Below the pieces are notes generated by a model. That model was not told the origin of the DNA and ran no database searches. It worked only from the letters and a program-made list of their open reading frames with translations. A stretch of 64,000 nt of DNA from the human T2T-CHM13v2.0 reference genome, Homo sapiens, in the NCBI RefSeq assembly GCF_009914755.1, contig NC_060938.1, one strand, 5' to 3'. This document shows positions 1 to 61,830 of this stretch, one piece after another. How positions within the stretch are numbered: the stretch's first letter is position 1; each line of letters begins with the position of its first letter. The position numbers and the translations under genes were made by a program.

Positions 1-304
1 CAACGGGACCCTCCTGCTGGCCCACGTGGCTGCCAGAGCCCATGCTGGCACGACGCTCCAGCAGGTCGGCGTCCCTGCGGAACACACTACCGGTGACATG
101 GCTAGCATGACCCTCCTTCCTGGCAGTGACACTGTTGATGTGAACCCCAGTTTCACATCTGTCATTTGTAAATAGGACCACTTTCCCTTTTCTCTCTCCC
201 TTCCATTCACAGGGCTTTTCATTCTCTCTCTTTCTGCCTCCGTTTCAGATATTTACTCACCTTTTTCTCTCTCACTATGTCTGCCGTGGTCTCCATGAGA
301 GTGC

Positions 305-640
305 GCCACATAAGTTTCCGCCATTAAAAGTCATGAATTGAGTGGCTTTTAGTATAACTGTGGTCGTGCAATTTCAATTTTAATTCGCAATCCATTGTAG
401 AACGTCTTATCACCCCCGACCAGAGAAGAACCCTGTAGACATTAGTCACTCCTCATTCTCTCTCAAACCCTCTTCCTGACCCTCAGCCCTAGGTAGCAAC
501 TACCTAGTGCGATCAACCCCATATGCACAGATATCCATATTGTGGACATTTCCTACAAACGGAATTGCACAATAGGTGAGCTGTTATGACTGACATAACA
601 CGTAGCACAATATTTTCAAGATTCATCCACATTGTAGGCT
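305..640 (-). mobile_element. Old L1M (L1MB/ME-like) 3' end fragment
   Basis: Resembles antisense L1M 3'UTR motifs (gagtggcttttagtata...tagaacgtcttatcacccc...ggacatttcctacaaacggaat...caagattcatccacattgtag); diverged. Confidence 0.6.
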
Positions 641-694
641 GACCCACAGGGGGAAACCATTTTGTGGGGAGTTTTAGTGACACCGGGTGTTTTG

Positions 695-800
695 TCCTTC
701 TTTTCGTCCTTCTTTCCTTCCTTCCTTCTTTCCTTCCTTCCTTCCTTCCTACCTTCCTTCTTTCCTTCCTTCCTTCCTTCCTTCCTTCCTTCCTTCCTCC
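695..800 (+). repeat. (TTCC)n simple repeat
   Basis: Direct tandem ttcc/cctt units. Confidence 0.95.
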
Positions 801-1059
801 TATTTGTCTCTTACTCCTTCTGCCCTCTCTCTTTCATATGCCTTAGGTGCATCCCACATTCTGCGTTTTTTTGGGGAAATCCTCGACAGGTGCAGGAAAA
901 TTGTGTTATTGTAACTATTTACCGCTATCTCTCTTTCACGGCTCTCCATCAGTTGTGAACATCTATTGGTTTATCCCAAGTCACTAAGCATATTTTTATT
1001 AGGTACACCTGTTTTTCCTTATACAGCTGTTTCTGGAGTATAGGGTCGCATACTCACAA

Positions 1060-1155
1060 ACCCAGTGTAACTCAGAAACGCATCTAATATTCCAATAAAC
1101 CCATCTTAACGTTGAAAAATCATGAATCAAACCATCATAAGTTACGGTTTGTCCG
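1060..1155. mobile_element. Tigger4/Zombi-type DNA transposon remnant
   Basis: ccaataaacccatcttaacgttgaaaaatc...aaccatcataagtt resembles the Tigger4a core. Confidence 0.45.
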
Positions 1156-1534
1156 TGGATATGGGTGTCATCAATTCCATTGTATTCAGTAATGCTGTAC
1201 ACCATTAACAATGGCAGACTGATTGGGAGTGTATATTGATAGCATTATAACAGTCAGTTATTAGAGGGATACTTCTTTAACCTGACTGAAGAAGTGATCT
1301 AATGGCTTTAGTACAGTGCATGATTATGTGAGATGTTTTGAGACAGAGTAGTACATTTGTGAATGAAATTTTATGGCTTTTTTTCACTTAGTAGGAACCA
1401 TTGTGTGTGGAAAAGTGAGAAAATTGCTTTCTGCTGTAGGGTCTGGCATTCATTGTGGATTTAAGCTTATTTTTCTGTGAGCAAATCTTATTCAATAAAA
1501 TACTATTCTTTATACTAAAAAACAAAAACAGTGG

Positions 1535-1850
1535 TGATGTGTGGTCATTATCCTCAGCAAACTAGTCTAGGGAAAGAAAACCAAACGCCACATTCTCACT
1601 TAAAATGGGAGCAGAAAAATGAGATCACATGGACACTGGAAGGGGAACAACACACACTGGGGCCTTTCGGGAGGCAGAGCTTTAAGAAAAACAGCTACTG
1701 CATGCTGGGCTTAATACCTAGGTGATGGGTTGACAGGTGCAGCAAACCACCATGACCCACGTTTACCTTAGTAACAAATCTGCACATCCTGCACATATAC
1801 CCCAGAACTTAGAAACGAAACGAAACAAAAGAAAACGAAAAAGCAATAGC
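1535..1850 (+). mobile_element. L1PA/PB 3' end with A-rich tail
   Basis: cattatcctcagcaaacta...ggtgatgggttgacaggtgcagcaaaccaccatg...cccagaacttag followed by a degenerate poly(A). Confidence 0.85.
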
Positions 1851-2024
1851 AAAGCGCTAAAGGCAAAATAAAGTTTCCAACTCCGAAAGTGACAGACCAA
1901 TGTTTGGTTCAAATCATGGTTCTCAGCCCAGGCGCCATAAGGTCAGGATAAAGAATTTGATTACATATTGTAAATAAGACATGCAACAAATGACCAGAAA
2001 GATTATTCTCAACATATGTGTGTC

Positions 2025-2490
2025 TTCTAATTCAATGGTGACACTATCTACCGGGACATAGCATTAGATTCCAAAGGGCTGAGTCCCGCCAGACAGGCCT
2101 CCCACACTCATAACAACGGGAAGCCCTACGTTGTATTACCTGTGCTTCTCAGCAACTGGCTATAAATCAGGTTGCCACCACTCCCAGATTTAGTTGCATT
2201 CATTGGCTGGAAGAGCTCACAGCACGCAGAGAAACACTTACATTTGCCGTTGTATTTTAGCGGACATTGCAAAAAGTTCAGAAATAAATGTGGGGCCCGG
2301 CATGTGGGGAGGGGTGCACTGCCTTCCAGGAAGTGTTATCCAGAAGCTCTCTGAACCCAGTCCTTTTGGGTTTTTATGGAGACCTCATTCTATAGGCATG
2401 ATGGGTTAAACCATAGGCTATTGGTGATCAACTCCACCTGAGGCTCTCAACCCTCCCTGGAAATTGGGGTTGAGGCTTTGCCATTCTCAG
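2025..2490. mobile_element. MER21-like LTR
   Basis: acactatctaccgggacatagcattagattcc...gggctgagtccc and cagaagctctctgaacccagtccttttgggtttttatggag match recalled MER21B/C motifs. Confidence 0.7.
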
Positions 2491-2557
2491 TCTGACTAAA
2501 AGAAGTTACCCAAACGGAATTTTAAAACAGATGAGCATAACTGGACTCTTAATTAGA

Positions 2558-2568
2558 TGATTGGATTA
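2558..2568 (-). promoter_or_regulatory. Perfect DUX4 binding motif (TAATCCAATCA on - strand)
   Basis: + strand TGATTGGATTA at 2558-2568 matches TAAYCYAATCA; an overlapping near-match TAATTAGATGA lies at 2550-2560. Confidence 0.65.
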
Positions 2569-3030
2569 TCTGGACACACACCTTGATATTCCAAACCGGA
2601 GCACCCTCATCCAACGAATGCTCCACCCAACTGGCTCCCAAGTCTCCACGTGGTTCCAGAGCAAAGGAATGTTTATACAACGCATATCTCTACTTTTTCT
2701 TCAAAGTCTTTTCGCTTACACGGAAAGACTTCTTCAACTGCCATGCATCAGGGTCAGGGGGAGGTCTTGTTGCAACACACATCTGTGGATCTCCGGGATT
2801 TGATTGTGGCAAGGATGCTGCTGGTGTCGAAACCACAACGTGGGAACCACAGAACCACTGTTTGGTTTTCAGTGTTTCAGTGCATACAATTCCTAATATA
2901 TCTGGCCAAGAAAACTTGGAAGTTCTTAGATTGTCCCAAAGGTGGCGCATGAAATCAAAGCAGGAGAACAGTTTCCTACGAGGTGTAGCCTGGGAAAGTT
3001 GGGGGTGACTGATGGAAAGGAGGAGTGAAG

Positions 3031-3101
3031 CTCCGCCCTTTCCGCTGCTAGGCTGCGCCCGAGGCTATTTAAACCCACCCTGGCTGGCCTGTACTCAGAT
3101 C
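3031..3101 (+). promoter_or_regulatory. Core promoter: GC box, TATA-like box and Inr (predicted TSS A3097)
   Basis: CCGCCC 3033-3038; TATTTAAA 3066-3073; TCAGATC 3095-3101 matches YYANWYY with +1 A exactly 31 nt after the TATA start; local CpG cluster at about 3030-3190. Confidence 0.6.
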
Positions 3102-3221
3102 TTCGCGGAGCGGATCAGCGGCCTGAGCGTTTGGCGGACTCTGCGTGGACTTGGAGCTCACGGCGTCTTGCGACTTGAAAGCGGATTCAGAGGACAGGAC
3201 AGAACACTTGGGCAAGTGAAT

Positions 3222-3360
3222 CTCTGTCTGTCTGTCTGTCTGTCTGTGTGTCTGTCTCATTGGTTGGTTGATTTCCATTTTCTTAAGGGGCACATACCTC
3301 ACACCGCACACACAGAAACACACACACACACACACACACGCACACACACGCACACACACT
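3222..3360 (+). repeat. (CTGT)n and (CA)n microsatellites, inside a putative 5'UTR intron
   Basis: Tandem units at about 3222-3258 and 3305-3360. Confidence 0.9.
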
Positions 3361-3420
3361 CCTTCCTTCTGCGAGTTAGAAAATTAGTAGGGGCCCCTGG
3401 GAGCTGCAGGTTTCCTAATC

Positions 3421-6012
3421 ATGTCTGCACCTAAGAACAGTAGGGTCTTGTCTGGCTCTTCTTATGAACGGTCCCCCAGCCTGGACTCCCCAAGGTCCAT
3501 GCGAGCCTCACCCAGCTTCTCCCTCTCCCCTCTCAGAAACTCAGGCTTAAGGGGAAGCTCCTCACCAGGGATCCGGACCTACTATTCACCATCACCTAGG
3601 GCTTCACCACACTCACCTCTGTCATCACCAGAATCCCACAAGCGCCCATTTCCCTGTCCTCACCGTGATGGGCAATCAATGAAGCCATCGGGCTCTCCCG
3701 TGTCCTCCTCTGAGGATTCCTCAGAGTCCCCACGATCATCAATAATATACCACATGTTCTTACTGCCATCACCCAGCAGCTCACCCCCAGCTCTCGGGGG
3801 GTCTCCTGTGTCTCCCAGCTACTCTCCAAACAACCCCAGATTTCAGCTGGAGTCAGCCCCCCACACCCAGGAATCACCTACAAACTCACGAGCCTCACGG
3901 TGCTCCACCCCTGTGTCTTTCATCTCTTCACCCCCAGGCCTCAGGGACTCTCCTGTGGCTCCCAGTTCCTCTCCAGCCATCCCCAGGTTCCTGCGGGAGT
4001 CAGCCCCATGCACCCAGGAGTCCCCCAGAGACTCACATGTCTCGGGAGAATATGAGCGGTCCCCCAGCCCTGACTCCTCAAGATTCAGGCCTGCCTCACC
4101 CAGCTTCTCCCTCTCCCCTCCCAGAAACTCAGACCCAAGGGGCAGCTCCTCACCAGGGATGTGGAAGTACTCTACATCATCCCGCAGGGCTTCACCACTC
4201 TCACATCCATCATCAACAGAATTCCACAGCTTTACGTTTCCCTTTCCTAACCAAGCAGGACAGTCACTCATGTCATTGTGTTCTCCCGTGTCCTCCTCTG
4301 GAGATTCTTCACAGTCACCTCATTCATCAATAATATACCATATGTTCTTACTGCCATCATCCAGCAGCTCATCCCCAGCCACCCATGACTCTCCTGTCTG
4401 TCCCAGCTACTCTCCAACCACGCCCAGATTTCAGCGGGAGTCTGTACCCCACACCCCAGAAACACCTACAAACTCACAGACCTCAGTGAGATCCTGGCCA
4501 GTCTCTCTCACGTCTTCACCCCCAGCCCTTACGGACCCTCCAGTCTGTCCCAGCTACTCTCCAACCACGCCCACATTTCAGCGTGGGTCAGTTCCAGGAA
4601 CCCAGGGATCACCGCCAAGCCCACCACTTTCACTGAGTTACTCCCCAGTCTCTAGCACGTCTTTATCTCCAACCCTCAGGGACTCGCCTGACTGTCCCAG
4701 CTACTCTCCAAACACGCCCACACTTCAGCGGGAGTCCGTTGCAGGCACCCAGAAATCACCACCAAACTCACCAATTTCACTGCGTTACTCCCCAGTCTCT
4801 CTCATGTCTTCACCATCCCTCAGGGACTCTCCTGTCTGTCCCAGCTACTCTCCAACCACGCCCACATTGCAGCTGGAGTCAGTTCCAGGCACCCCGGAAT
4901 CACCACCAAACTCACCAATTTCACTCAGTTACTCCTCAGTCTCTAGCACGTCTTTATCTCCAACCCTCAGGGACCCTCCAGTCTGTCCCAGCTACTCTCC
5001 AACCACGCCCACATTTCAGCGTGGGTCAGTTCCAGGAACCCAGGGATCACCGCCAAGCCCACCACTTTCACTGAGTTACTCCCCAGTCTCTAGCACGTCT
5101 TTATCTCCAACCCTCAGGGACTCGCCTGACTGTCCCAGCTACTCTCCAAACACGCCCACACTTCCGCGGGAGTCCGTTGCAGGCAACCAGAAATCACCAC
5201 CAAACTCACCAATTTCACTGCCTTACTCCCCAGTCTCTCTCATGTCTTCACCATCCCTCAGGGACTCTCCCGTCTGTCCCAGCTACTCTCCAACCACGCC
5301 CACATTGCAGCTGGAGTCAGTTCCAGGCACCCCGGAATCACCACCAAACTCACCAATTTCACTCAGTTACTCCTCAGTCTCTAGCACGTCTTTATCTCCA
5401 ACCCTCAGGGACTCTCCTGTGTGTCCCAGCTACTCTCCAACCACGCCCACACTTCAGCGGGAGTCAGTTCCAGGCACCCCGGAATCACCACCAAACTCAC
5501 CAATTTCACTCAGTTACTCCTCAGTCTCTAGCACGTCTTTATCTCCAACCCTCAGGGACTCTCCTGTCTGTCCCAGCTACTCTCCAACCACGCCCACATT
5601 TCAGCTGGAGTCAGTTCCAGGCACCCCGGAGTCACCACCAAACTCTCCAGTTTCACTCAGTTACTCCCCGGTCTCTCTCATGTCTTCACCCCCAGCCCTC
5701 AGGGACTCTCCTGTGTGTCCCAGCTACTCTCCAACCATGCCCAGATTTCAGCGGGAGTCAGTTCCAGGCACCCAGGTATCACCTACAAACTCAGCAGTTT
5801 CACTGAGTTACTCCCCTGTCTCTCTCATGTCTTCACCCCCAGCCCCCTGGGACTCTCCTGTCTGTCCCAGCTACTCCCCCACCACGCCCAGATTTCAGAG
5901 GGAGTCAATAGTCTTTATAATTTGGTATGTTTTTGCAGTGGCTGTTACCAGTTGTTCCTTTCCGTGTTTAGTGCTTCCTTCAGGAGCTCTTGTAAGGCAG
6001 GCATGGTGGTGA
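3421..6012 (+). CDS. Putative 863-aa Ser/Pro/Thr-rich tandem-repeat protein encoded by the ACRO1 array (CTD-like PSYSPTTP motifs); last ~35 codons read from antisense L1
   Basis: ATG with A at -3; no stop in 2589 nt; 49-aa repeat; length variants are in frame; upstream core promoter. Expression cannot be shown from sequence. Confidence 0.5.
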   Translation: MSAPKNSRVLSGSSYERSPSLDSPRSMRASPSFSLSPLRNSGLRGSSSPGIRTYYSPSPRASPHSPLSSPESHKRPFPCPHRDGQSMKPSGSPVSSSEDSSESPRSSIIYHMFLLPSPSSSPPALGGSPVSPSYSPNNPRFQLESAPHTQESPTNSRASRCSTPVSFISSPPGLRDSPVAPSSSPAIPRFLRESAPCTQESPRDSHVSGEYERSPSPDSSRFRPASPSFSLSPPRNSDPRGSSSPGMWKYSTSSRRASPLSHPSSTEFHSFTFPFPNQAGQSLMSLCSPVSSSGDSSQSPHSSIIYHMFLLPSSSSSSPATHDSPVCPSYSPTTPRFQRESVPHTPETPTNSQTSVRSWPVSLTSSPPALTDPPVCPSYSPTTPTFQRGSVPGTQGSPPSPPLSLSYSPVSSTSLSPTLRDSPDCPSYSPNTPTLQRESVAGTQKSPPNSPISLRYSPVSLMSSPSLRDSPVCPSYSPTTPTLQLESVPGTPESPPNSPISLSYSSVSSTSLSPTLRDPPVCPSYSPTTPTFQRGSVPGTQGSPPSPPLSLSYSPVSSTSLSPTLRDSPDCPSYSPNTPTLPRESVAGNQKSPPNSPISLPYSPVSLMSSPSLRDSPVCPSYSPTTPTLQLESVPGTPESPPNSPISLSYSSVSSTSLSPTLRDSPVCPSYSPTTPTLQRESVPGTPESPPNSPISLSYSSVSSTSLSPTLRDSPVCPSYSPTTPTFQLESVPGTPESPPNSPVSLSYSPVSLMSSPPALRDSPVCPSYSPTMPRFQRESVPGTQVSPTNSAVSLSYSPVSLMSSPPAPWDSPVCPSYSPTTPRFQRESIVFIIWYVFAVAVTSCSFPCLVLPSGALVRQAWW
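3463..5907 (+). repeat. ACRO1 147-bp satellite array (diverged 588-bp duplicated head plus 11 core monomers)
   Basis: cccagctact anchor at 4402, 4549, 4696, 4840, 4987, 5134, 5278, 5425, 5572, 5719, 5866 (spacing 147 or 144); further anchors at 3814 and 3961 (variant cccagttcct); 147 bp is the ACRO1 unit length. Confidence 0.9.
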
Positions 6013-7200
6013 CAATATCTCTCTGCATTTGCTTGTAAAGGATTTTATTTCTCCTTCAATTATGAAGCTTAGTTTGGCTGGATATGAAATTCTGGCTTGA
6101 AAATTCTTTTCTTTAGGAATGTTGTGTATTGGCCCCCACTCTCTTCTGGCTTGTAGGTTTTCTGCCAAGAGATCCACTGTTAGTCTGACGGGCTTCCCTT
6201 TGTGGGTAACTCAACCTTTCTCTCTGGATGCCCTTAATATTTTTTCCTTCATTTCAACCTTGGTGAATCTGATGATTTTGTGTCTTGGGGTTGCTCTTCT
6301 TGAGGAGTATCTTAGTGGTGTTCTCTGTATTTCCTGAATTTGAATGTTGGCCTGTCTTGCTATGTTGGGGAAGTTCTCCTGGATAATATCCTTAAGAGTT
6401 TTTTCCAACTTGGTTCCATTCTTTCTGTCACTTTCAGGTACACCAATCAAACGTAGATTCAGTCTTTTAACATAGTCCTCTATGTCTTGGAGGCTTTGTT
6501 CATTTCTTTTCACTCTTTTTTCTCTAATCTTGCCTTCTTGCTTTATTTCATTGAGTTGATCTTTAATCTCTGATATCCTTTCTCCTGATTGATTGAATCA
6601 ACTATTGATACTTGTGTATGCTTCATGAAGTTCTTGTGCTGGGTTTTTCAGCTCCATGAGGTCATTTATATTCTTCTCTAAACTGGTTATTCTAGTTAAC
6701 AATTCGTCTAACCTTTATTTTTCAGACTCTTAGCTTCCTTGCATTGGGTTAGAACGTGCTCCTTTAGCTCGGAGGAGTTTTTTATTACCCACCTTCCGAA
6801 GCCTACTTCTGTCAATTCGTCAAACTCATTGTCTGTCCAGTTTTGTTCCCTTCCTGGCGGGGAGTTGTGATCTTCTGGAGGAGAAGAGGCATTCTAACTT
6901 TTGGAGTTTTCAGCATTTTTGCACTGGTTTCTCCCCATCTTTGTGGATTTATTTACCTTTGGTCTTTGATGTTGGTGATGTCTATACTATTCCTTTCTGT
7001 TTCTTAGTTTTCCTTCTAACAGTCAGGTCCCTCTCTGCAGGTTTGCTCGAGTTTGCTGGAGGTCCACTCCAGACCCTTTTTGCCTGGGTATCACCAGTGG
7101 AGGCTCAGTTGGAAATGCATGAACCACCTGCCTTCTGTGTTGATCTCACTGGGTGCTGCAGGCCGGAGCTGTTCCTATTCAGAAATCTTGCCAGATCTCC
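5908..7200 (-). mobile_element. L1PA (about PA7-PA10) fragment: internally deleted 5'UTR plus disrupted ORF1, cut just after the ORF1 stop
   Basis: Minus-strand ORFs give L1 ORF1p peptides (NEQSLQDIEDYVKRLNLRLIGVPE; RISYPAKLSF); L1 5' end motif ggagctgttcctattc near 7165-7200. Confidence 0.92.
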
Positions 7201-7983
7201 TGTAATACTTTAATGAATGGGTGTAGTCCTCTCTTCTCAAGGTCCCCAAATATCTTGAGGTTCCTGGGCCCTTCAGAAAGTGACATTCTTTACTTCTTAC
7301 CACAAGGATAGCAACTTTGTAAAGGACCTTTGTAGACAGGACATCAAGCCAGTCATTCTAAGGGGCTTTGTATTGGTGCTATAAAGTCAACCTCAATTCC
7401 TTAAAGTGGTCTGGTTGTATCTGCCATTCGAGTTAAAGCCTTGATAAAACAAACAGTGTCTCCAATTGAATCTTGTTACCAAAAACAGATTCTTATTGAA
7501 ATTATGTAAATAATTATATTGCCATAATTTAAGAATGCTCACGAATGGCTTCTGAATTCTGGAGAAATCAGCTAGGGAGACAGATAAATGGCTCAAATTT
7601 TTGTTCACAATGTAGTTTATCTAATGTATTGTAAGTTAAAAATAGCTGAAAAGGAAAAAAATTCTTGACTTTGGAAAACAAAACATAAAGAGGATCAACA
7701 ATGTTTCTAATGGAAGGGCCATGGATAAAATCTTTTCCTTCTTTTATAAGTTCAGTCCCATATAACTAAATCTTGTTCTGCTTGATTTCAAATAGCAATT
7801 CTCATTCAGTTTTTTGTGTTTTGCTTGATTTCAATTAGAAATTCTCATTCAGCTTTTTAGAGTCCTGGAAGATTTTCCTAGTCCAATGGTATGATCCCCA
7901 AAGTTATCTGAAACCATATTCAAGAGAACTTGTCAGAATCCTTTCCATTAGAAGTAATTTAGATGATAGCTGATTGTAAAGGC

Positions 7984-8277
7984 TTTTTTTTTTTTGAGAC
8001 ACGGTCTGGCTCTATCACTCAGGATGGAGTGCAGTGGCATGATCTTGGTTCACTGCAATCTCTCCCTCCCAAACTCAAGCCATCCTCCTACCTCACCCTC
8101 CGAAGTAGCTGGGACCATAGGCATGCATCATCATGCCTGGCTAATTTTTGTATTTTTGTAGAGACAGGATTTTACCATGTTGCCTAGGCTGCTTTCAAAC
8201 TTCTTAGTTTAAGCAATTCACCCACCTCGACCTTGCAAAGTGCTGGGATATTTACACGCATGAGCCACCATGCCCTG
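7984..8277 (-). mobile_element. AluJ-like
   Basis: Poly-T followed by gagacacgg...gagccacca. Confidence 0.9.
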
Positions 8278-46054: not shown

Positions 46055-52187
<6,133 letters not shown>

Positions 52188-56725: not shown

Positions 56726-59700
56726 TCTTTCATCAAAGCCTGGAGAATGGTTACATCTCCTGGATGATCAGTTCAGAAACATGTCACAATGCCCCTCCCT
56801 GCGGAGCCTAGAGAAGATTTGCATCATTTGGGTGATCAGTGCAGAGATATTTCACAATGTCCCCTGTACAAAAAGCCCGGGAATGATTTACATCACCTCG
56901 GTGATCAGTGCATAGGTATGTCAGAAATCCTCAGTAGGCTGAAACTAGACAAGGGTTACATCATTTAGGCGATCAGTGTAGAGATATGTGAAAATTCCCG
57001 TGTAGACAGAGCCTAGACAAGTGTTACATCACCTAGTGATCAGTGCAGGGTTAAGTCATAAAGCCTCCTGTAGGAAGAGTGTAGACAAGTGTTTCCTCCC
57101 TGTGGTGATCAGTGCAGAGATATGTCACAAAGCTCCTATAAGCAGAACCTTGAAAAGGGTTACATCACCTGTTGGATCAGTGGAAATGTATATCACAAAG
57201 TCCCTGTAGGCAAAGCCCAGACAATTGTTACATCACCTGGGTGAGCAGTGTAGAGATCTGTCACAATGCCCCTGTAGGCAGAGCTTAGACAAGGGTTACA
57301 TCACCTGGGTGATCAGTGCAGAGATATGTCAAAACGCTCCTGTAGGCTGAACCTAGACAGGAGTTACGTCACCTGGGTGATCAGTGCAGAGACATGTGAG
57401 AATTCCCGTGTAGGCAGAGCCTAGACCAGTGTTACATCACCTAGGTTATCAGTGGAGGTATAAGTCATAAAGCCTCCTGTAGGCCGAGCGTAGAGAAGAC
57501 TTCTCCCCCCAGGGTGAACAGTGCAGAGATGTGTCACAAAGCCCCTGTAGGGAGAGCCTAGACAAGAGTTTCATCACTTGGTTGATCAATACAGAAATGT
57601 GTCACAATGTCCATGTAGGCAGATTTAAGACAAGAGCCCATCTCCTCGGTGATCAGTGCAGAGAGATGTACCAATGTCCCCTGTAGGCAGTGCCTAGACA
57701 AGAGTTGCATCACCTCAGAGATCAGTGTATAGATACGTCACAAAGCCTTCTATAGGCAAAGCCCATACAAGGCTTACATCACCTAGGTGATCAGTGCAGT
57801 GATATGTCACACAAATCCCTGTAGACAGAGCCTAGACAAGAGTTACATCACCTGGGTGATCAGTGCAGATATATGACACAATGCCCCCATAGACAGAGCC
57901 TAGAGAACACTTCCATCACCTGGGTGATCAGTGCAGAGATGTGTCACAAATCCCTCTCTAGGCAGAGTAAAGAGAAGAGTCCCATCACCTGGGTGATCAG
58001 TGCGGAGATATTTCACAATGCCCCCTGTAGGCTGAGAGGGGACAACAGTTACATAACCTAGGTGATCTGTGCAGAGCTATGTCAAAACGCCCCTGCAGGC
58101 AGAGCCTAGATAAATGTTACATCACCTGGGTGATTAGAGCAGAGATACGTCACAATACCCCCTGTACGTGGAGCCTAGACAAGAGTTACATAACCTGGGT
58201 GATCAGGTCAGAAATATGTCACAAAGCAGGTGTAGGCCGAGCCTAGACAAGAGTTACATCTCCTGGGTGATCAGTGCAAAGATATGTCACAAAGCCCCGT
58301 GTAGACAAATCCCAGAAAATAGTTACATCACCTCGGTGATCACTGGAGACATCTGTCACAATTCCCCTTTAGTCGCAGCTTAGACAAGGGTTACGTCACA
58401 TGAGTGATCAGTGCAGAGATATGTCATTAAGACCCCATAGGCAGATCTAAGACAAGAGTCCATCACCTGAGTGATCAGTGCAGAAATATGCCACAATGTC
58501 GTCAGAAGGCAGATATAGACAAGAGTTACATCACCTGCGTGATCACTGCAGAGATATGTCACAATGCTGCTGTAGGCAGAGCCTAGACAAAAGTCCCATC
58601 ACCTGGGTGATCAGTGCAGAGTTATGTCACAATGCCCCCTTTGGCAGAGTAAACAAATGTTACATCACCTGGGTGATCAGTGCAGAGTTGTGTCACAAGC
58701 TCCCTGTAGCCAGAGCCTAGACAAGAGTTACATCAGCTGTGTGATAAGTGCAGTGACATGTCACAATGTCCCTGTAGCCATATCCTTGACAAAAGTGACA
58801 GCACCTGGGTGATCAGTGCGGAGATATGTCACAATGTCTCCAGTAGGCAGAGCCTAGACAAGAGTTACATCACCTGGCTGATCAGGGTAGAGATATGTTA
58901 CAATGCCCCCTGTAAGCAGATCCCAGACAAGAGTTGCATCACTTCGGTGATCAGTGCAGAGATATGTCTCAATGACCCCTGTCGGCAAAGACTATAGAAG
59001 AGTTACATCATGTTGGTGATCAGTGCAGAGATATGTGAAAATGCCCCCGTAGGCAGAGCCTAGACAAGAGTTACATCAGCTGGGTGAGCAGTGCAGAGAT
59101 ATCTCACAATACCCACTGTAAGCAGAGCCTAGAAAAGAGTTACATCACCTGGGTGATCAGTGCAGAGATATATCATAAATCCCACTGTAGGCAAAGCCTA
59201 GACAAGTTTTACATCACCTCAGCGATCAGTGCAGAGATATGTCCCAAAGTCCCTCTAGGCAGACCCTAGACAAGAGTCACATCTCCTGGGTGATCAGTGC
59301 AGAGATAAATCACAATGCCCCCATAGGCAGAGCCTAGACAAGTGTTACATAACCTGGGTGATCCGTGCAGAGTGATGTCACAAGGCCCTCTCCAGGCACA
59401 GACTAGAAAAGAGTTACATTACCTGAGGGATCAGTGCAGTGATATGTCACAATGCCCCCTGTAGGCAGTGCATAAAGAAGAGTTGCAACACTTGGGTGAT
59501 CAGTGCAGCGATGTATCACAATGTCCCCTGTAGGCAGAGCATAGAGAATAGTTGCATCACCTGGGAGATCAGTGCAGAGATATGTCACAATGTCCCCTGT
59601 AGGCAAAGCCTAGGCAAGAGTTACAACACCTTTGTCATCAGTTCAGGGATATGTGAAAACGTCCCTGTGGGCAGAGTCTAGACAAGAGTTACGCCACCTG

Positions 59701-61830
59701 GTTGATCGGTGCAGTGATATTACACAATACCCCCTGTAGGCAGATCCTAGAAAAGAGTTGAATCACCTACGTGATCAGTGCAGAGATATGTCACAATGCC
59801 ACTGTGGGCAGAGCCTAGAGAAGAGTTACATGGCCTAGGTAATCATTGCAGAGATACATCGCAATTTCCCTGTAGGCAGAGCCTTGACAAGTGTTACATC
59901 AGCTGTGTGATCATTGCAGGTATATGTCACAATGCACCTTGTAGTCAGATCCTAGAAAAGAGTTACATCACCTAGGTGATCAGTGCAGACATTTGTCAAA
60001 ATTCCCTGTAGGTAGTGCTTATAAAATTGTTATATCACCTAAGTGATCAGTGCAGAGTTATGTCACAAAGCTCCTGTAGGCAGAACTTAGATGAGTTACA
60101 TCACCTGGGTGATCAGTGCAAAGGTATGTCACAAAGCCCCCTGTAGGCAAACCCTAGACAATAGTTACATCACTTGGGTGATCAGTGGCGAGATCTCTCA
60201 CAATTCTCCTGTCGGCAGAGCTTATACAACAGTTACATCACCTGGGTGATCAGTTCAGAGATATGTCACAATGCCCTCAAAGGCAGATCCAAGACAAGAG
60301 TCCATCACCTGGCTGATCAGTGCAGAAATATGTCACAATGCCCCCTTAGGCAGAGACTAAACAAAAGCCCCATCACCTGGATGATCAGTGCAGAGTTATG
60401 TCACAAAGTCCCTTTAGGCAGATCCTAGACAAGTGTTGCATCACTTGGATGATCAGTGCAGATTTATGTCACAATGCCAATGTAGGCAGAGCCTAGACAA
60501 GGGTTACATGACCTAGGTGATCAGTGCAAAGATACAGCGCAATGTCCCTGTAGGCAGAGCCTTGACAAGTAGTACATGACCTGAGTGATCATTGCATGGA
60601 TATGTCACAAAGCACCCTGTAGGCAGATTCTAGAGAATAGTTATATCACCTGGGTGATCAGTGCATAGATATGTCACAAGCCCCTGTAAGCAGAGCCTAG
60701 ACAAGAGTTATATCTCCTGGGTGATCAGTGCAGTGATATTTCACAATGCCATGAAGCCAAGCCTAGACTAATGTTACAGCACCTGGGAGATCAGTACAGA
60801 GATATGTCACAATGTCCCCAGTAGGCAGAGACCAGGCAAGAGTTGGATCACCTCGCGATCTGTGCAGAGATATGTCTCAATCTCCCTGTGGGCACAGCCT
60901 AGGCAAGAGTTACATCACCTCGGTTAACAGTGCAGAGACATGTCATAATGCCCCTGTAGGCAGAGCCTACACAAGTTTTACATCACTTAGGTGATCAGTG
61001 CAGAGATATGTCACAATACCCCCTGTAAGCAGAGCCTAGACAAGAGTTACATCACCTGGGTGATCAGTGCAGAGATATTTGACAAGGCCCCTTTAAGCAG
61101 AGCCTAGACAATAGTTACAACACCTGAGTCATCAGTGCAGAGATTTGTCACAATGCCCCTTTAGGCAGAGCTTAGACTAGAGTTACATAACCTGGGTGAT
61201 CAGTGCAGATATATGTCACAATGCCCCCATAGGCAAATCCAAGACAAGAATCCGTCACCTGGGTGATCAGTGCAGACATATGTGACAATGCCCCCCGTAG
61301 GCAGAGCCTAGAGAAGAGTCCCAACACCTGGGTGATCAATGCAGAGATATTTCACAATGACCCTGCAGGCAGAGCGTAAGGAAGAGTTAAATCACCTAGA
61401 TGATCAGTGCAGAGATATGTCAAAAGGCCCCCTATAGGCAGAGCCTGGACAAGAGTTACATCACCTCGGTGATCAATGCAGCGATATGTCACTATGCCCC
61501 TTAGGCAGAGCCTAGTCAAGCGTTACATCACGTCGGTGATCAGTGCAGAGATATGTCACAAAGTCCTCATACACAGAGCCTAGACTAGAGTCCCATCACC
61601 TGGGTGATCAGTGCAGAAATATGTCACAATGCCTCCATAGGCAGATCCAACACAAGGGTTACATCACCTGGGTGATCAGTGTAGAGATATGTCACAATGT
61701 CCCCATAGGCAGAGCCTAGACAAAAGTCCCATCACCTGGGTGATCAGTGCAGAGATATGTCACAAAGCCCCTGTAGGCAGAGCCTAGACAAGAGTTACAT
61801 CACTTTGTTGATCAGTTGAGAGATGTTTCA
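56726..61830 (+). repeat. Beta satellite (68-bp Sau3A/BSR), about 75 diverged monomers
   Basis: Repeat gatcagtgcagagatatgtcacaatgcccctgtaggcagagcctagacaagagttacatcacctgggt. Confidence 0.97.

What the first reader, a model, noticed from the sequence alone, without database searches (positions are those of the whole stretch)
2550..6012. ACRO1 'satellite' looks like a complete protein-coding gene: DUX4 site, TATA/Inr promoter and an 863-aa CTD-like repeat ORF
Seen: the 147-bp array is one open frame from ATG 3421 for 2.6 kb. The unit is exactly 49 codons and the only length variant in the core is -3 nt, while the other forward frames give only short ORFs. Upstream are a GC box, TATTTAAA and a consensus Inr with canonical -31 spacing, plus a perfect DUX4 motif about 530 bp before the predicted TSS. 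Known (recalled, unverified): ACRO1 is annotated as a non-coding acrocentric satellite inside a multi-kb composite unit, and has been reported as DUX4-inducible and as Pol II-binding RNA. Inference: the ACRO composite is a tandem, repeat-masked gene family expressed at embryonic genome activation or in FSHD, encoding a disordered, proline-directed-kinase-rich protein.
Basis: partly seen in the sequence, partly recalled or inferred. Interest (0 to 1): 0.92.

Follow-up and report, generated by a model that had tools for sequence, protein, structure and literature searches.

The report
Truncated copy of hidden ACRO gene
This stretch is a cut-off end copy of a 6-kb repeat whose intact copies look like a real, intron-free gene for a roughly 1,000-residue serine/proline-rich protein, hidden inside what is catalogued as the ACRO1 satellite.

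Summary
ATG 3421 opens an 863-codon frame through the 147-bp array, and a DUX4 motif (2558), TATTTAAA (3066) and an Inr (A at 3097) lie upstream.

This copy is not a complete gene. At 5907 it runs into L1-like DNA. It therefore lacks the family's last 168 codons, the TGA stop and the ATTAAA signal.

Intact ACRO units elsewhere in the same genome carry a 945-1091-aa ORF from the same ATG to a shared C-terminus. Of 16 copies picked by place, 11 were intact. About 223 copies exist in the genome.

The reading frame has been kept by selection:
- An old chr2 paralogue shows no indel in 2,679 ORF bases, against 14 in 2,986 flank bases.
- An internal duplication that is 22% diverged has no gap.
- Marmoset has a collinear 832-aa predicted protein.
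- Short (about 300-360 aa) homologues keep the start, one repeat unit and the tail motifs.

Amino-acid constraint is weak (omega 0.65-1.05). Translation and the start site could not be tested here.

The CTD-like translation was published in 2020. I found no paper describing the full gene architecture or its evolutionary support.

Verdict: a coding macrosatellite, with the window holding a degenerate member.

The parts
1..96 (+). Last 31 codons and the TGA stop of the preceding ACRO unit's ORF. That copy's ATG is about 6.2 kb upstream, outside the window, and its ORF is frameshifted.
   Evidence: Frame 0 of window 1-96 reads the family C-terminus and then a stop. Window 1-1189 aligns to canonical unit 5798-7001 at 94%. 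The preceding copy, L003, loses collinearity near ORF nt 705 and stops at codon 304.
323..328 (+). ATTAAA, the candidate poly(A) signal of the preceding unit, 229 nt after its stop.
   Evidence: Position. The canonical unit has the same spacing.
503..5907 (+). The part of this copy that is homologous to the canonical ACRO unit.
   Evidence: Canonical unit 1-5387 aligns to window 503-5896 at 93.4%. Similarity ends inside a 147-bp unit at about 5907.
2558..2568 (-). DUX4-type motif TAATCCAATCA.
   Evidence: Located. The motif is kept in 37 of 42 distinct copies, including the old chr2 copy.
3033..3038 (+). GC box CCGCCC.
   Evidence: Read.
3066..3073 (+). TATA box TATTTAAA.
   Evidence: Located. 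Kept in 40 of 42 copies.
3095..3101 (+). Initiator TCAGATC, with the predicted +1 A at 3097.
   Evidence: The start site itself is inferred, not shown.
3097..3420 (+). Predicted 5' leader with (TCTG)n at 3223-3257 and (CA)n at 3307-3359. It holds no upstream ATG.
   Evidence: Of 42 copies, 40 have no ATG in the last 330 nt before the start. The microsatellite lengths vary between copies.
3421..5907 (+). The first 829 codons of the family ORF. The 33-mer that ends in this ATG occurs 223 times in the genome.
3463..4018 (+). First copy of the old 588-nt in-frame duplication.
   Evidence: ORF nt 43-598 against 631-1186: 78.2% identity, 121 differences and 0 gaps.
4051..4606 (+). Second copy of the old 588-nt in-frame duplication.
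4387..5907 (+). ACRO1 array of 147-bp (49-codon) units, each made of seven degenerate heptads.
5908..6012 (+). Read-through of 34 codons plus a stop in L1-like flank. This is not family sequence.
5908..6978 (.). L1-like repeat that replaces the 3' end of the unit.
   Evidence: 81.5% identity to 50148-51210. Both stretches are masked in NCBI's file, according to the hub note. The name L1 is recalled, not tested.

Best explanation
Window 2550-6012 holds the promoter, the leader and the first 829 codons of one 3'-truncated, array-edge copy of the roughly 6.2-6.6-kb ACRO composite unit.

The intact unit is an intronless gene. The '147-bp ACRO1 satellite' is the internal 49-residue coding repeat of a 945-1091-aa protein. 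That protein is rich in serine, proline and threonine and is probably disordered. It has a fixed N-terminus and a shared, non-repeat, Cys/His-containing C-terminal tail.

Selection has kept the frame open for tens of millions of years while letting most residues drift. This step is shown.

Transcription most likely starts about 31 nt after the TATA box and is switched on by DUX4 through the conserved upstream site at embryonic genome activation. The mRNA would end after ATTAAA. These steps are inferred from motifs plus published RNA data.

The window's own copy lacks the tail, the stop and the poly(A) signal. It is most likely a dead or crippled member.

My sub-odds are:
- truncated edge copy: 0.95
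- frame kept by selection: 0.85
- translated into a working protein in human embryos today: about 0.5
For: 1. Canonical unit. L045 (chr15) has the ATG, 993 codons, a TGA stop and ATTAAA at +229. The window matches it only up to 5896/5907.

2. Census.
- Sixteen copies were chosen by place only. Ten run from the ATG to the shared C-terminus (993 aa x5, 1042 x2, 1090/1091 x3). One is open to the locus end (1100 codons). Five are broken.
- Thirty copies were chosen by DNA similarity. Twenty-one are open for all 826 codons held.
- Overall, 42 of 58 distinct copies are open and 16 are broken.
- ORF lengths differ by whole 48/49-codon units.

3. The old chr2 paralogue against the canonical unit.
- ORF: 2,679 ungapped nt, 177 differences, 0 indels.
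- Flanks: 2,986 nt, 311 differences, 14 indels, of which 12 are not multiples of 3.
- My arithmetic expects 6.8-10.8 frameshifting indels in the ORF, so P(0) is about 1e-3 to 2e-5.
- The repeat-number region shows only 3-nt indels plus two compensated pairs.
- Homopolymer density is similar in the ORF and the flanks.

4. Internal repeats. All 23 self-matches have offsets of 0 mod 3. The 588-nt duplication has 121 differences and 0 gaps.

5. Other species.
- A marmoset 832-aa predicted protein is collinear from Met1. It is 70.7% identical over 345 aa with one 1-residue gap, and the tail is 74.8% identical over 159 aa with no gap.
- Short homologues P0018 (355 aa) and P0027 (361 aa) keep MSAP..., IIYHMF, SPVSPSYSPT, GLTAT and CPSTCYCHTLA.

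6. Nonsense variants are rare.
- 1 observed against 9.3 expected among 328 variant events (P=0.0009). The control frames gave 6 against 8.7 and 3 against 7.8.
- 4 against 10.6 in 52 copies (P=0.02). The control frames gave 6 against 7.5 and 7 against 7.3. Frame-0 stops are seen in at most 2 copies, while control-frame 'stops' reach 10 and 20 copies.

7. Promoter motifs are kept even in the chr2 copy, whose promoter is 12.7% diverged.

8. Papers, passages read.
- DUX4 induces ACRO1 RNA (PMC8990217, PMC12776069).
- ACRO1 RNA peaks at the 4-cell stage in data the authors call mRNA-biased (PMC6545021).
Against: - There is no amino-acid-level constraint. The omega-like ratio is 0.92-1.05 among human copies, 0.78 and 1.0 against chr2, and 0.65 for the old duplication with control frames at 1.74 and 0.82. 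Differences are not enriched at codon position 3.
- The ORF diverges less than its flanks at all three codon positions (6.6% against 10.4%). Gene conversion or an RNA/DNA-level constraint could also cause this.
- 16 of 58 copies are broken.
- The nonsense deficit is modest once scaled by the control frames. It weakens further if three excluded broken copies are counted: about 6 against 10.6.
- No gene is annotated here in RefSeq, according to the hub note. Pfam gives nothing.
- Boots et al. found no stable ACRO1 transcript in HeLa and found strong cis-inhibition of elongation (and the abstract).
- The marmoset and other primate proteins are automatic predictions. I could not see their DNA.
- No start-site, ribosome or peptide data were available to me.
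Confidence: 0.7

Rival explanations
1. Ex-gene now decaying. A primate gene was captured and amplified as a composite satellite. Its frame was selected in the past, but the human copies are now neutral DNA, and any RNA is a by-product of DUX4-opened chromatin.
For: - The omega-like ratio is about 1 among human copies, and 16 of 58 are broken.
- The chr2 copy carries 4 in-frame TGA codons in its tail.
- The arrays are only about 3% diverged, so there has been little time to decay.
- There is no RefSeq model here (hub note).
- No stable RNA was found in HeLa.
Against: - Nonsense variants are fewer than expected and stay at 1-2 copies, unlike those in the control frames.
- The large distal arrays on chr13, 14, 15, 21 and 22 hold full-length ORFs.
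- The promoter motifs and the uATG-free leader are kept in nearly all copies.
Confidence: 0.2
2. The function lies in the RNA or DNA, not the protein. ACRO1 RNA acts as a Pol II-binding aptamer that silences its own locus (Boots et al.), or the array acts as chromatin, and the open frame is incidental.
For: - ACRO1 RNA was selected by Pol II in genomic SELEX and blocks elongation in cis, dependent on orientation (PMC7714431, abstract and passages).
- All three codon positions diverge more slowly than the flanks.
Against: - An RNA or DNA constraint does not explain why only 3n indels survive.
- It does not explain why the non-repeat N-terminus and tail stay in frame up to a shared stop.
- It does not explain why short homologues keep peptide motifs at about 45% identity.
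- The two roles can coexist.
Confidence: 0.08
3. An ordinary non-coding satellite. The frame is open only because one C-rich 147-bp unit without stops was copied many times.
For: - A single 147-nt unit is open in 28% of shuffles.
Against: - 0 of 2000 shuffles of the region were open, and the 210-codon non-redundant part is open in only 1.4%.
- The units are 14-30% diverged yet have no stop and no frameshift.
- The frame runs on through non-satellite sequence to a shared stop.
- Orthologous ORFs exist.
Confidence: 0.03

Closest known systems
ACRO1 satellite / ACRE / ACRO_Comp composite (Boots et al. 2020, PMC7714431; Hoyt et al. preprint 10.1101/2021.07.12.451456; acrocentric-evolution preprint 10.64898/2025.12.22.696095)
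   Same: - A 147-bp unit.
- A roughly 6-kb higher-order unit made of a long array, a spacer and two more units.
- Found on acrocentric short arms plus chr1, 2, 3 and 4.
- Primate-only, and the translated unit resembles the CTD.

My counts and places agree with these descriptions.
   Different: - Those papers treat it as a satellite or composite repeat and as an RNA aptamer.
- Neither the main text nor the supplement text of Boots et al. holds 'open reading frame' for ACRO.
- The start codon, tail, stop, poly(A) signal, promoter and frame-conservation evidence are not described in them.
- One preprint (PMC12746033, passage read) calls it 'a putative protein coding gene' in passing.
Coding macrosatellites: D4Z4 encoding DUX4. 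Others, such as RS447/USP17 and the TAF11L arrays, are recalled and not tested.
   Same: - A tandem multi-kb unit, each unit carrying an intronless ORF.
- Primate-restricted and sited in heterochromatin.
- Copy number varies.
- Linked to cleavage-stage and FSHD expression.
- Edge or partial units differ in their 3' ends.
   Different: - Here the ORF itself contains a satellite of 49-residue repeats.
- Each unit appears to carry its own poly(A) signal.
- The product has no known domain.
- There are about 223 copies on at least 8 chromosomes.
RNA polymerase II RPB1 C-terminal domain
   Same: - Seven-residue periodicity: lag-7 identity is 0.198 against 0.113 +/- 0.010 in shuffles.
- The 49-residue unit equals 7 heptads, with YSPT and SP motifs.
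- The only PDB sequence matches are RPB1 CTDs, with a best E-value of 2e-8.
   Different: - There is no polymerase body.
- The heptads are degenerate: 8 YSPT and 17 YSP in 993 aa.
- Common descent is not shown, and a low-complexity match of this size may be convergence.
DUX4-induced, primate-specific multi-copy gene families (TRIM43, ZSCAN4 and TAF11L12 are named as targets in PMC12776069)
   Same: - A DUX4-type motif lies upstream.
- The RNA is reported as DUX4-induced and as peaking at cleavage stages.
- The family is multi-copy and fast-evolving.
   Different: - It lies in satellite-annotated DNA and is absent from gene lists.
- DUX4 binding to this site was not tested here.

Membership tests
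Protein-coding gene under selection | An open frame longer than composition and repeat structure allow | tested here: met
   0 of 2000 shuffles of the region were open. The non-redundant 210 codons are open in 1.4% of shuffles.
Protein-coding gene under selection | Indels confined to multiples of three while the flanks take any length | tested here: met
   ORF: 0 indels in 2,679 nt. Flanks: 14 indels (12 not multiples of 3) in 2,986 nt. Internal repeats are all in phase. Unit lengths are 147 or 144.
Protein-coding gene under selection | dN/dS clearly below 1 | tested here: not met
   Values are 0.65, 0.78, 1.0 and 0.92-1.05, and the control frames overlap them.
Protein-coding gene under selection | A deficit of nonsense variants | tested here: inconclusive
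   1 against 9.3 expected (P=0.0009) and 4 against 10.6 (P=0.02). One control frame is also low (3 against 7.8), and excluded broken copies soften the result.
Protein-coding gene under selection | The same ORF in other species | tested here: met
   The marmoset 832-aa protein is collinear from Met1 to the tail. Piliocolobus and unnamed short forms also exist. These are predicted proteins only; their DNA was not seen.
Protein-coding gene under selection | A capped, polyadenylated mRNA, ribosome footprints and peptides | not testable with these tools
   Only published RNA-level statements were available.
ACRO1 / ACRO composite | 147-bp tandem unit inside a roughly 6-kb composite on acrocentric arms | tested here: met
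   Period 147. Unit spacing is 6.0-7.0 kb across 223 places on chr1, 3, 4, 13, 14, 15, 21 and 22, plus chr2.
ACRO1 / ACRO composite | A match to the Dfam ACRO1, L1PA10, MER21B and L1MB8 models | not testable with these tools
   No repeat library was on hand. The names come from the finding and from 10.64898/2025.12.22.696095.
Pol II CTD-type heptad repeat | Tandem 7-residue period with a YSPTSPS-like consensus | tested here: met
   There is a lag-7 signal about 8 sd above shuffles. Stacked heptads read x-S-P-x-S-P/L-x. The only PDB hits are RPB1 CTDs.
Pol II CTD-type heptad repeat | Part of RPB1, or shown to descend from it | tested here: not met
   There is no polymerase domain. Descent was not tested at the DNA level.
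DUX4 target promoter | A TAAYYYAATCA site near the start | tested here: met
   One site lies 529-539 nt before the Inr. It is kept in 37 of 42 copies. In this window alone it is not beyond chance.
DUX4 target promoter | DUX4 occupancy and DUX4-dependent initiation at this site | not testable with these tools
   Papers report DUX4-induced ACRO1 RNA. No start-site or ChIP data were seen.
Coding macrosatellite | Most tandem units carry a complete ORF | tested here: met
   11 of 16 copies sampled by place, and 42 of 58 overall.

The most novel reading that the evidence does not exclude
The roughly 223 ACRO units are a working, DUX4-switched gene family. Its product would be a 1,000-residue mimic of the Pol II CTD, with about a hundred degenerate heptads and around 100 SP/TP sites. 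Made in bulk at the 4-8-cell stage, and in FSHD muscle, it would compete for CTD kinases, phosphatases, prolyl isomerase and CTD readers, or join Pol II condensates. In that way it would tune genome activation and add to DUX4 toxicity. The same sequence would act twice: as protein, and as the Pol II-binding RNA of Boots et al.
Probability: 0.12. Interest if true: 0.95.

Novelty: new member of a known kind. Interest (0 to 1): 0.78.

Why it matters
If this reading is right, one of the most acrocentric-specific 'satellites' of apes is really a gene family of about 200 copies. It has been missed because it is repeat-masked and multi-mapping.

- It would add a large, unannotated item to the DUX4 and embryonic genome activation programme, and to the list of candidate FSHD effectors.
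- It would give a protein-level reason for the conserved structure of the ACRO unit.
- It would show that satellite annotation can hide coding repeats.
- It makes a concrete question testable: is there a cellular CTD decoy?
- For annotation, copy-number changes in ACRO arrays that have been seen between generations (PMC12746033, passage read) would become gene-dosage changes.

Tried and rejected
- A MAFFT alignment of 30 copies across the array part mis-registers the 147-bp units, and its consensus was not open. I dropped it and used ungapped collinear groups instead.
- The 'open_frame_aa' column disagreed with my own translation for the chr14:161k copy (662 aa), so I did not use it as a census.
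- Pfam gave no family for the window ORF, the canonical protein or the marmoset protein.
- Rfam found nothing in window 1-8000.
- The AlphaFold2 model of the 179-residue tail, built with 13 aligned sequences, had mean pLDDT 52 and no secondary structure. I therefore ran no fold search.
- A Fisher test on 3n against non-3n indels is weak, because the 3-nt events in overlapping HSPs may be the same events (2-4 events). I rely on the zero count in ungapped stretches instead.
- I could not decide whether the promoter is LTR-derived (MER21B). No repeat library was available, and the genome search scores only the top candidates.
- Two papers could not be fetched by the ids I recalled.
- Literature searches for a described ACRO gene found none: 'ACRO1'+'DUX4', 'ACRO1', 'ACRO'+'composite'+'acrocentric'+'open reading frame', 'RPB1-like', a five-term DUX4/satellite search, and 'composite elements'+'T2T-CHM13'+'ACRO'+'PRO-seq'.
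- Supplementary figures of the bioRxiv preprints were not seen. Supplementary Figure 11 of PMC12746033 may name an annotated gene in ACRO arrays.

Full report
**1. The observation**

- An ATG at 3421 opens an 863-codon frame that ends at 6012.
- Over 3421-5907, frame 0 has no stop in 829 codons. The other two forward frames have 8 and 17 stops, and the reverse frames have 35-89.
- Tandem Repeats Finder reports a 147-bp array at 4387-5907: 10.4 copies, 86% matches, 0% indels, with a 438-bp higher order.
- The repeat motif recurs every 147 or 144 nt, always in the same codon phase.
- TATTTAAA (3066), an Inr (TCAGATC, A at 3097), a CCGCCC box (3033) and a minus-strand DUX4-type motif (2558-2568) are all present.
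- The 324-nt leader has no ATG.

How much of this exceeds chance?
- Shuffles of the whole region give 14.4 stops on average and were never open (0 of 2000).
- A single 147-nt unit is open in 28% of shuffles, so an open array proves little by itself.
- The non-redundant first 210 codons are open in 1.4% of shuffles.
- The DUX4 motif alone is not beyond chance in 64 kb: 0.75 expected, and 54 of 100 shuffles had one.

**2. What this copy is**

The whole genome holding the window could be searched.
- The 33-mer ending in the ATG occurs 223 times with at most 3 mismatches, and the reversed control pattern occurs 0 times. The first 100 places listed are all exact. They are spaced 6.0-7.0 kb apart on chr1, 3, 4, 13, 14, 15, 21 and 22.
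- A full unit from chr15 (L045) has the same promoter and ATG, then a 993-codon ORF ending in TGA, with ATTAAA 229 nt later.
- The window aligns to that unit only from 503 to about 5896-5907 (93%). After that point it is L1-like DNA that matches another masked repeat in the window.
- The window's copy therefore lacks the last 504 nt of the ORF (168 residues), the stop, the 3' UTR and the poly(A) signal. Its last 35 codons are read-through into the flank.
- No remainder of the unit lies downstream in the window.
- Window 1-96 is the end of the preceding unit's ORF with its TGA, and that unit's ATTAAA is at 323. That preceding copy is itself frameshifted.
- The window thus holds the edge of a two-unit, degenerate cluster.

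**3. Is the family a gene?**

Census.
- Sixteen copies were chosen only by position, in arrays and solo sites not yet sampled.
  - Ten run from the ATG to the same C-terminus (993 aa x5, 1042 x2, 1090/1091 x3).
  - One is open to the end of the fetched piece (1100 codons).
  - Five are broken.
- Thirty copies were chosen by DNA similarity. Twenty-one are open over all 826 codons held.
- Overall, 42 of 58 distinct copies are open and 16 are broken.
  - By first disruption, eleven broken copies carry nonsense changes (some shared between copies) and five carry frameshifts or rearrangements.
- The intact copies sit in the large arrays. The broken ones are mostly solo or edge copies.

Deep-time tests give the clearest answer. 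I compared an old paralogue on chr2 (88-91% identical) with the canonical unit.
- Flanks: 14 indels in 2,986 aligned nt with 311 differences. Twelve of the 14 are not multiples of three.
- ORF: 2,679 nt align without any gap, with 177 differences.
- Scaling by length or by substitutions, 6.8-10.8 frameshifting indels were expected. This is my arithmetic, and it gives P(0) of about 1e-3 to 2e-5.
- In the part where unit number differs, only 3-nt indels and two compensated pairs (+2/-2 and +1/-1, within 10 nt) appear.
- Homopolymer runs are about as dense in the ORF as in the flanks.

Inside the ORF, a 588-nt duplication is 22% diverged (121 differences in 556 nt) and has no gap. All 23 internal repeat matches are offset by multiples of three.

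Other species.
- A marmoset predicted protein of 832 aa is collinear from Met1. It is 70.7% identical over the first 345 residues with one single-residue gap, and 74.8% identical over 159 tail residues with no gap.
- A colobus 'RPB1-like' prediction and unnamed short forms also exist.
- Two short forms (355 and 361 aa) consist of the N-terminal segment, one or two repeat units and the tail.
- The more distant short form is only about 45% identical. It still keeps MSAP at the start, IIYHMF, SPVSPSYSPT, GLTAT and CPSTCYCHTLA.
- This fits the supplement of Boots et al., which says all primates share a short element with two ACRO repeats.
- The gene therefore predates the satellite. The array is an expansion of its internal coding repeat.

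**4. What does not fit a classical gene**

Amino-acid constraint is weak or absent.
- Omega is 0.65 for the old duplication (control frames 1.74 and 0.82). It is 0.78 and 1.0 against chr2, and 0.92-1.05 among human copies.
- Differences are not concentrated at third codon positions.
- The ORF diverges less than its flanks at all three positions (6.6% against 10.4%). Gene conversion or a nucleotide-level constraint could also cause this.

Nonsense variants are fewer than expected, but the signal is moderate.
- In 31 collinear copies: 1 against 9.3 among 328 events (P=0.0009). The control frames gave 6 against 8.7 and 3 against 7.8. Nine structurally odd copies were left out.
- In 52 copies: 4 against 10.6 among 267 events (P=0.02). 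The control frames gave 6 against 7.5 and 7 against 7.3.
  - Left out were L003, L012, L044, L056 and L057 as non-collinear, and the chr2 copy L043.
  - L012 and L056/L057 carry early stops, at codons 379 and 157. Counting them gives about 6 events.
- Frame-0 stops occur in at most two copies, whereas control-frame 'stops' reach 10 and 20 copies.

Together this reads as selection for an open frame and for bulk composition. That pattern is typical of a fast-evolving disordered protein, with weak selection per copy in a 200-copy family.

**5. The product and how it may work**

- The canonical protein is 49% Ser+Pro+Thr and basic (pI 9.3), with 80 SP and 18 TP sites.
- The 49-residue unit is seven degenerate heptads. 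Lag-7 identity is 0.198 against 0.113 +/- 0.010 in shuffles.
- The only matches among solved structures are RPB1 CTDs, with a best E-value of 2e-8.
- Pfam finds nothing.
- AlphaFold2 gives the tail no structure (mean pLDDT 52).

Promoter conservation.
- The DUX4 site is kept in 37 of 42 copies and the TATA box in 40 of 42.
- The Inr is kept in nearly all copies.
- All three are kept in the chr2 copy, whose promoter is 12.7% diverged.
- 40 of 42 leaders lack an upstream ATG.

Published RNA data.
- Passages I read state that DUX4 induces ACRO1 RNA (PMC8990217, PMC12776069).
- ACRO1 RNA peaks at the 4-cell stage in data the authors describe as mRNA-biased (PMC6545021).
- It rises after cleavage (PMC12287470).

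The likely mechanism is as follows. DUX4 binds upstream, Pol II initiates at the Inr, and an intronless mRNA of about 3.5 kb ends after ATTAAA. It is translated into a CTD-like disordered protein. Only the frame conservation is shown; the rest is inferred.

**6. Known or new**

- Boots et al. 2020 (abstract and sections 7 and 12 read) published the 147-bp unit, the 6-kb 'ACRE' and the 23-of-49 identity to the CTD. They proposed an RNA aptamer role.
- Their main text and supplement text do not mention an open reading frame for ACRO.
- The T2T repeat preprint and the 2025-26 acrocentric preprint describe ACRO as a composite repeat.
[quoted passage not shown] Its supplementary figure was not visible to me.
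- Six literature searches found no description of the gene's full anatomy or of its evolutionary support.
- The kind is known: a coding macrosatellite tied to the DUX4 programme. This would be a new, large and unusual member.

**7. Verdict**

- The family-level interpretation is largely supported by sequence and evolution, but unproven at the RNA-end and protein level.
- The claim that this particular copy is a complete gene is wrong.
- Confidence in the overall reading is 0.7. Interest is 0.78.

Noticed in passing
window 56750-61824: A 5-kb tandem array with a 68-bp unit: 74.5 copies, 76% matches, with a 137-bp dimer period. By recall this fits beta satellite, which is common on acrocentric short arms.
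   Followed up: no
window 3223-3257 and 3307-3359: The (TCTG)n and (CA)n tracts in the predicted leader vary in length between ACRO copies in steps of 4 and 2 nt. The more distant short homologue P0018 still shows a TH-rich stretch, as a translated (CA)n tract would give, just before its MSAP start.
   Followed up: partly
proteins P0005 and P0004: A protein annotated in Plasmodium ovale wallikeri as 'hypothetical' / 'PIR superfamily' is 97% identical to the human ACRO ORF. It is most likely human DNA in that assembly. The marmoset and colobus homologues are named 'RPB1' or 'RPB1-like' only because of the heptads.
   Followed up: partly
L043 (chr2:132.72 Mb of the same genome): An old ACRO copy, with the start of a second unit behind it. 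It keeps the promoter motifs and a 745-codon frame, then has four in-frame TGA codons in the tail but no frameshift up to the shared stop.
   Followed up: yes
canonical unit positions 1056-1343 (L045, minus strand), homologous to about window 1560-1850: This roughly 290-bp piece of the unit is about 70% similar to three other places in the window (33714, 46073 and 53714). All three are masked repeats of about 300 bp, so it is probably a SINE-type insert within the composite.
   Followed up: no
window 4037-4333, frame +1: A 98-aa ATG ORF lies in the +1 frame of the repeat. Predicted proteins from decayed copies elsewhere (P0006, P0017, P0025) switch between this frame and frame 0. This shows what frameshifted copies look like.
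   Followed up: partly
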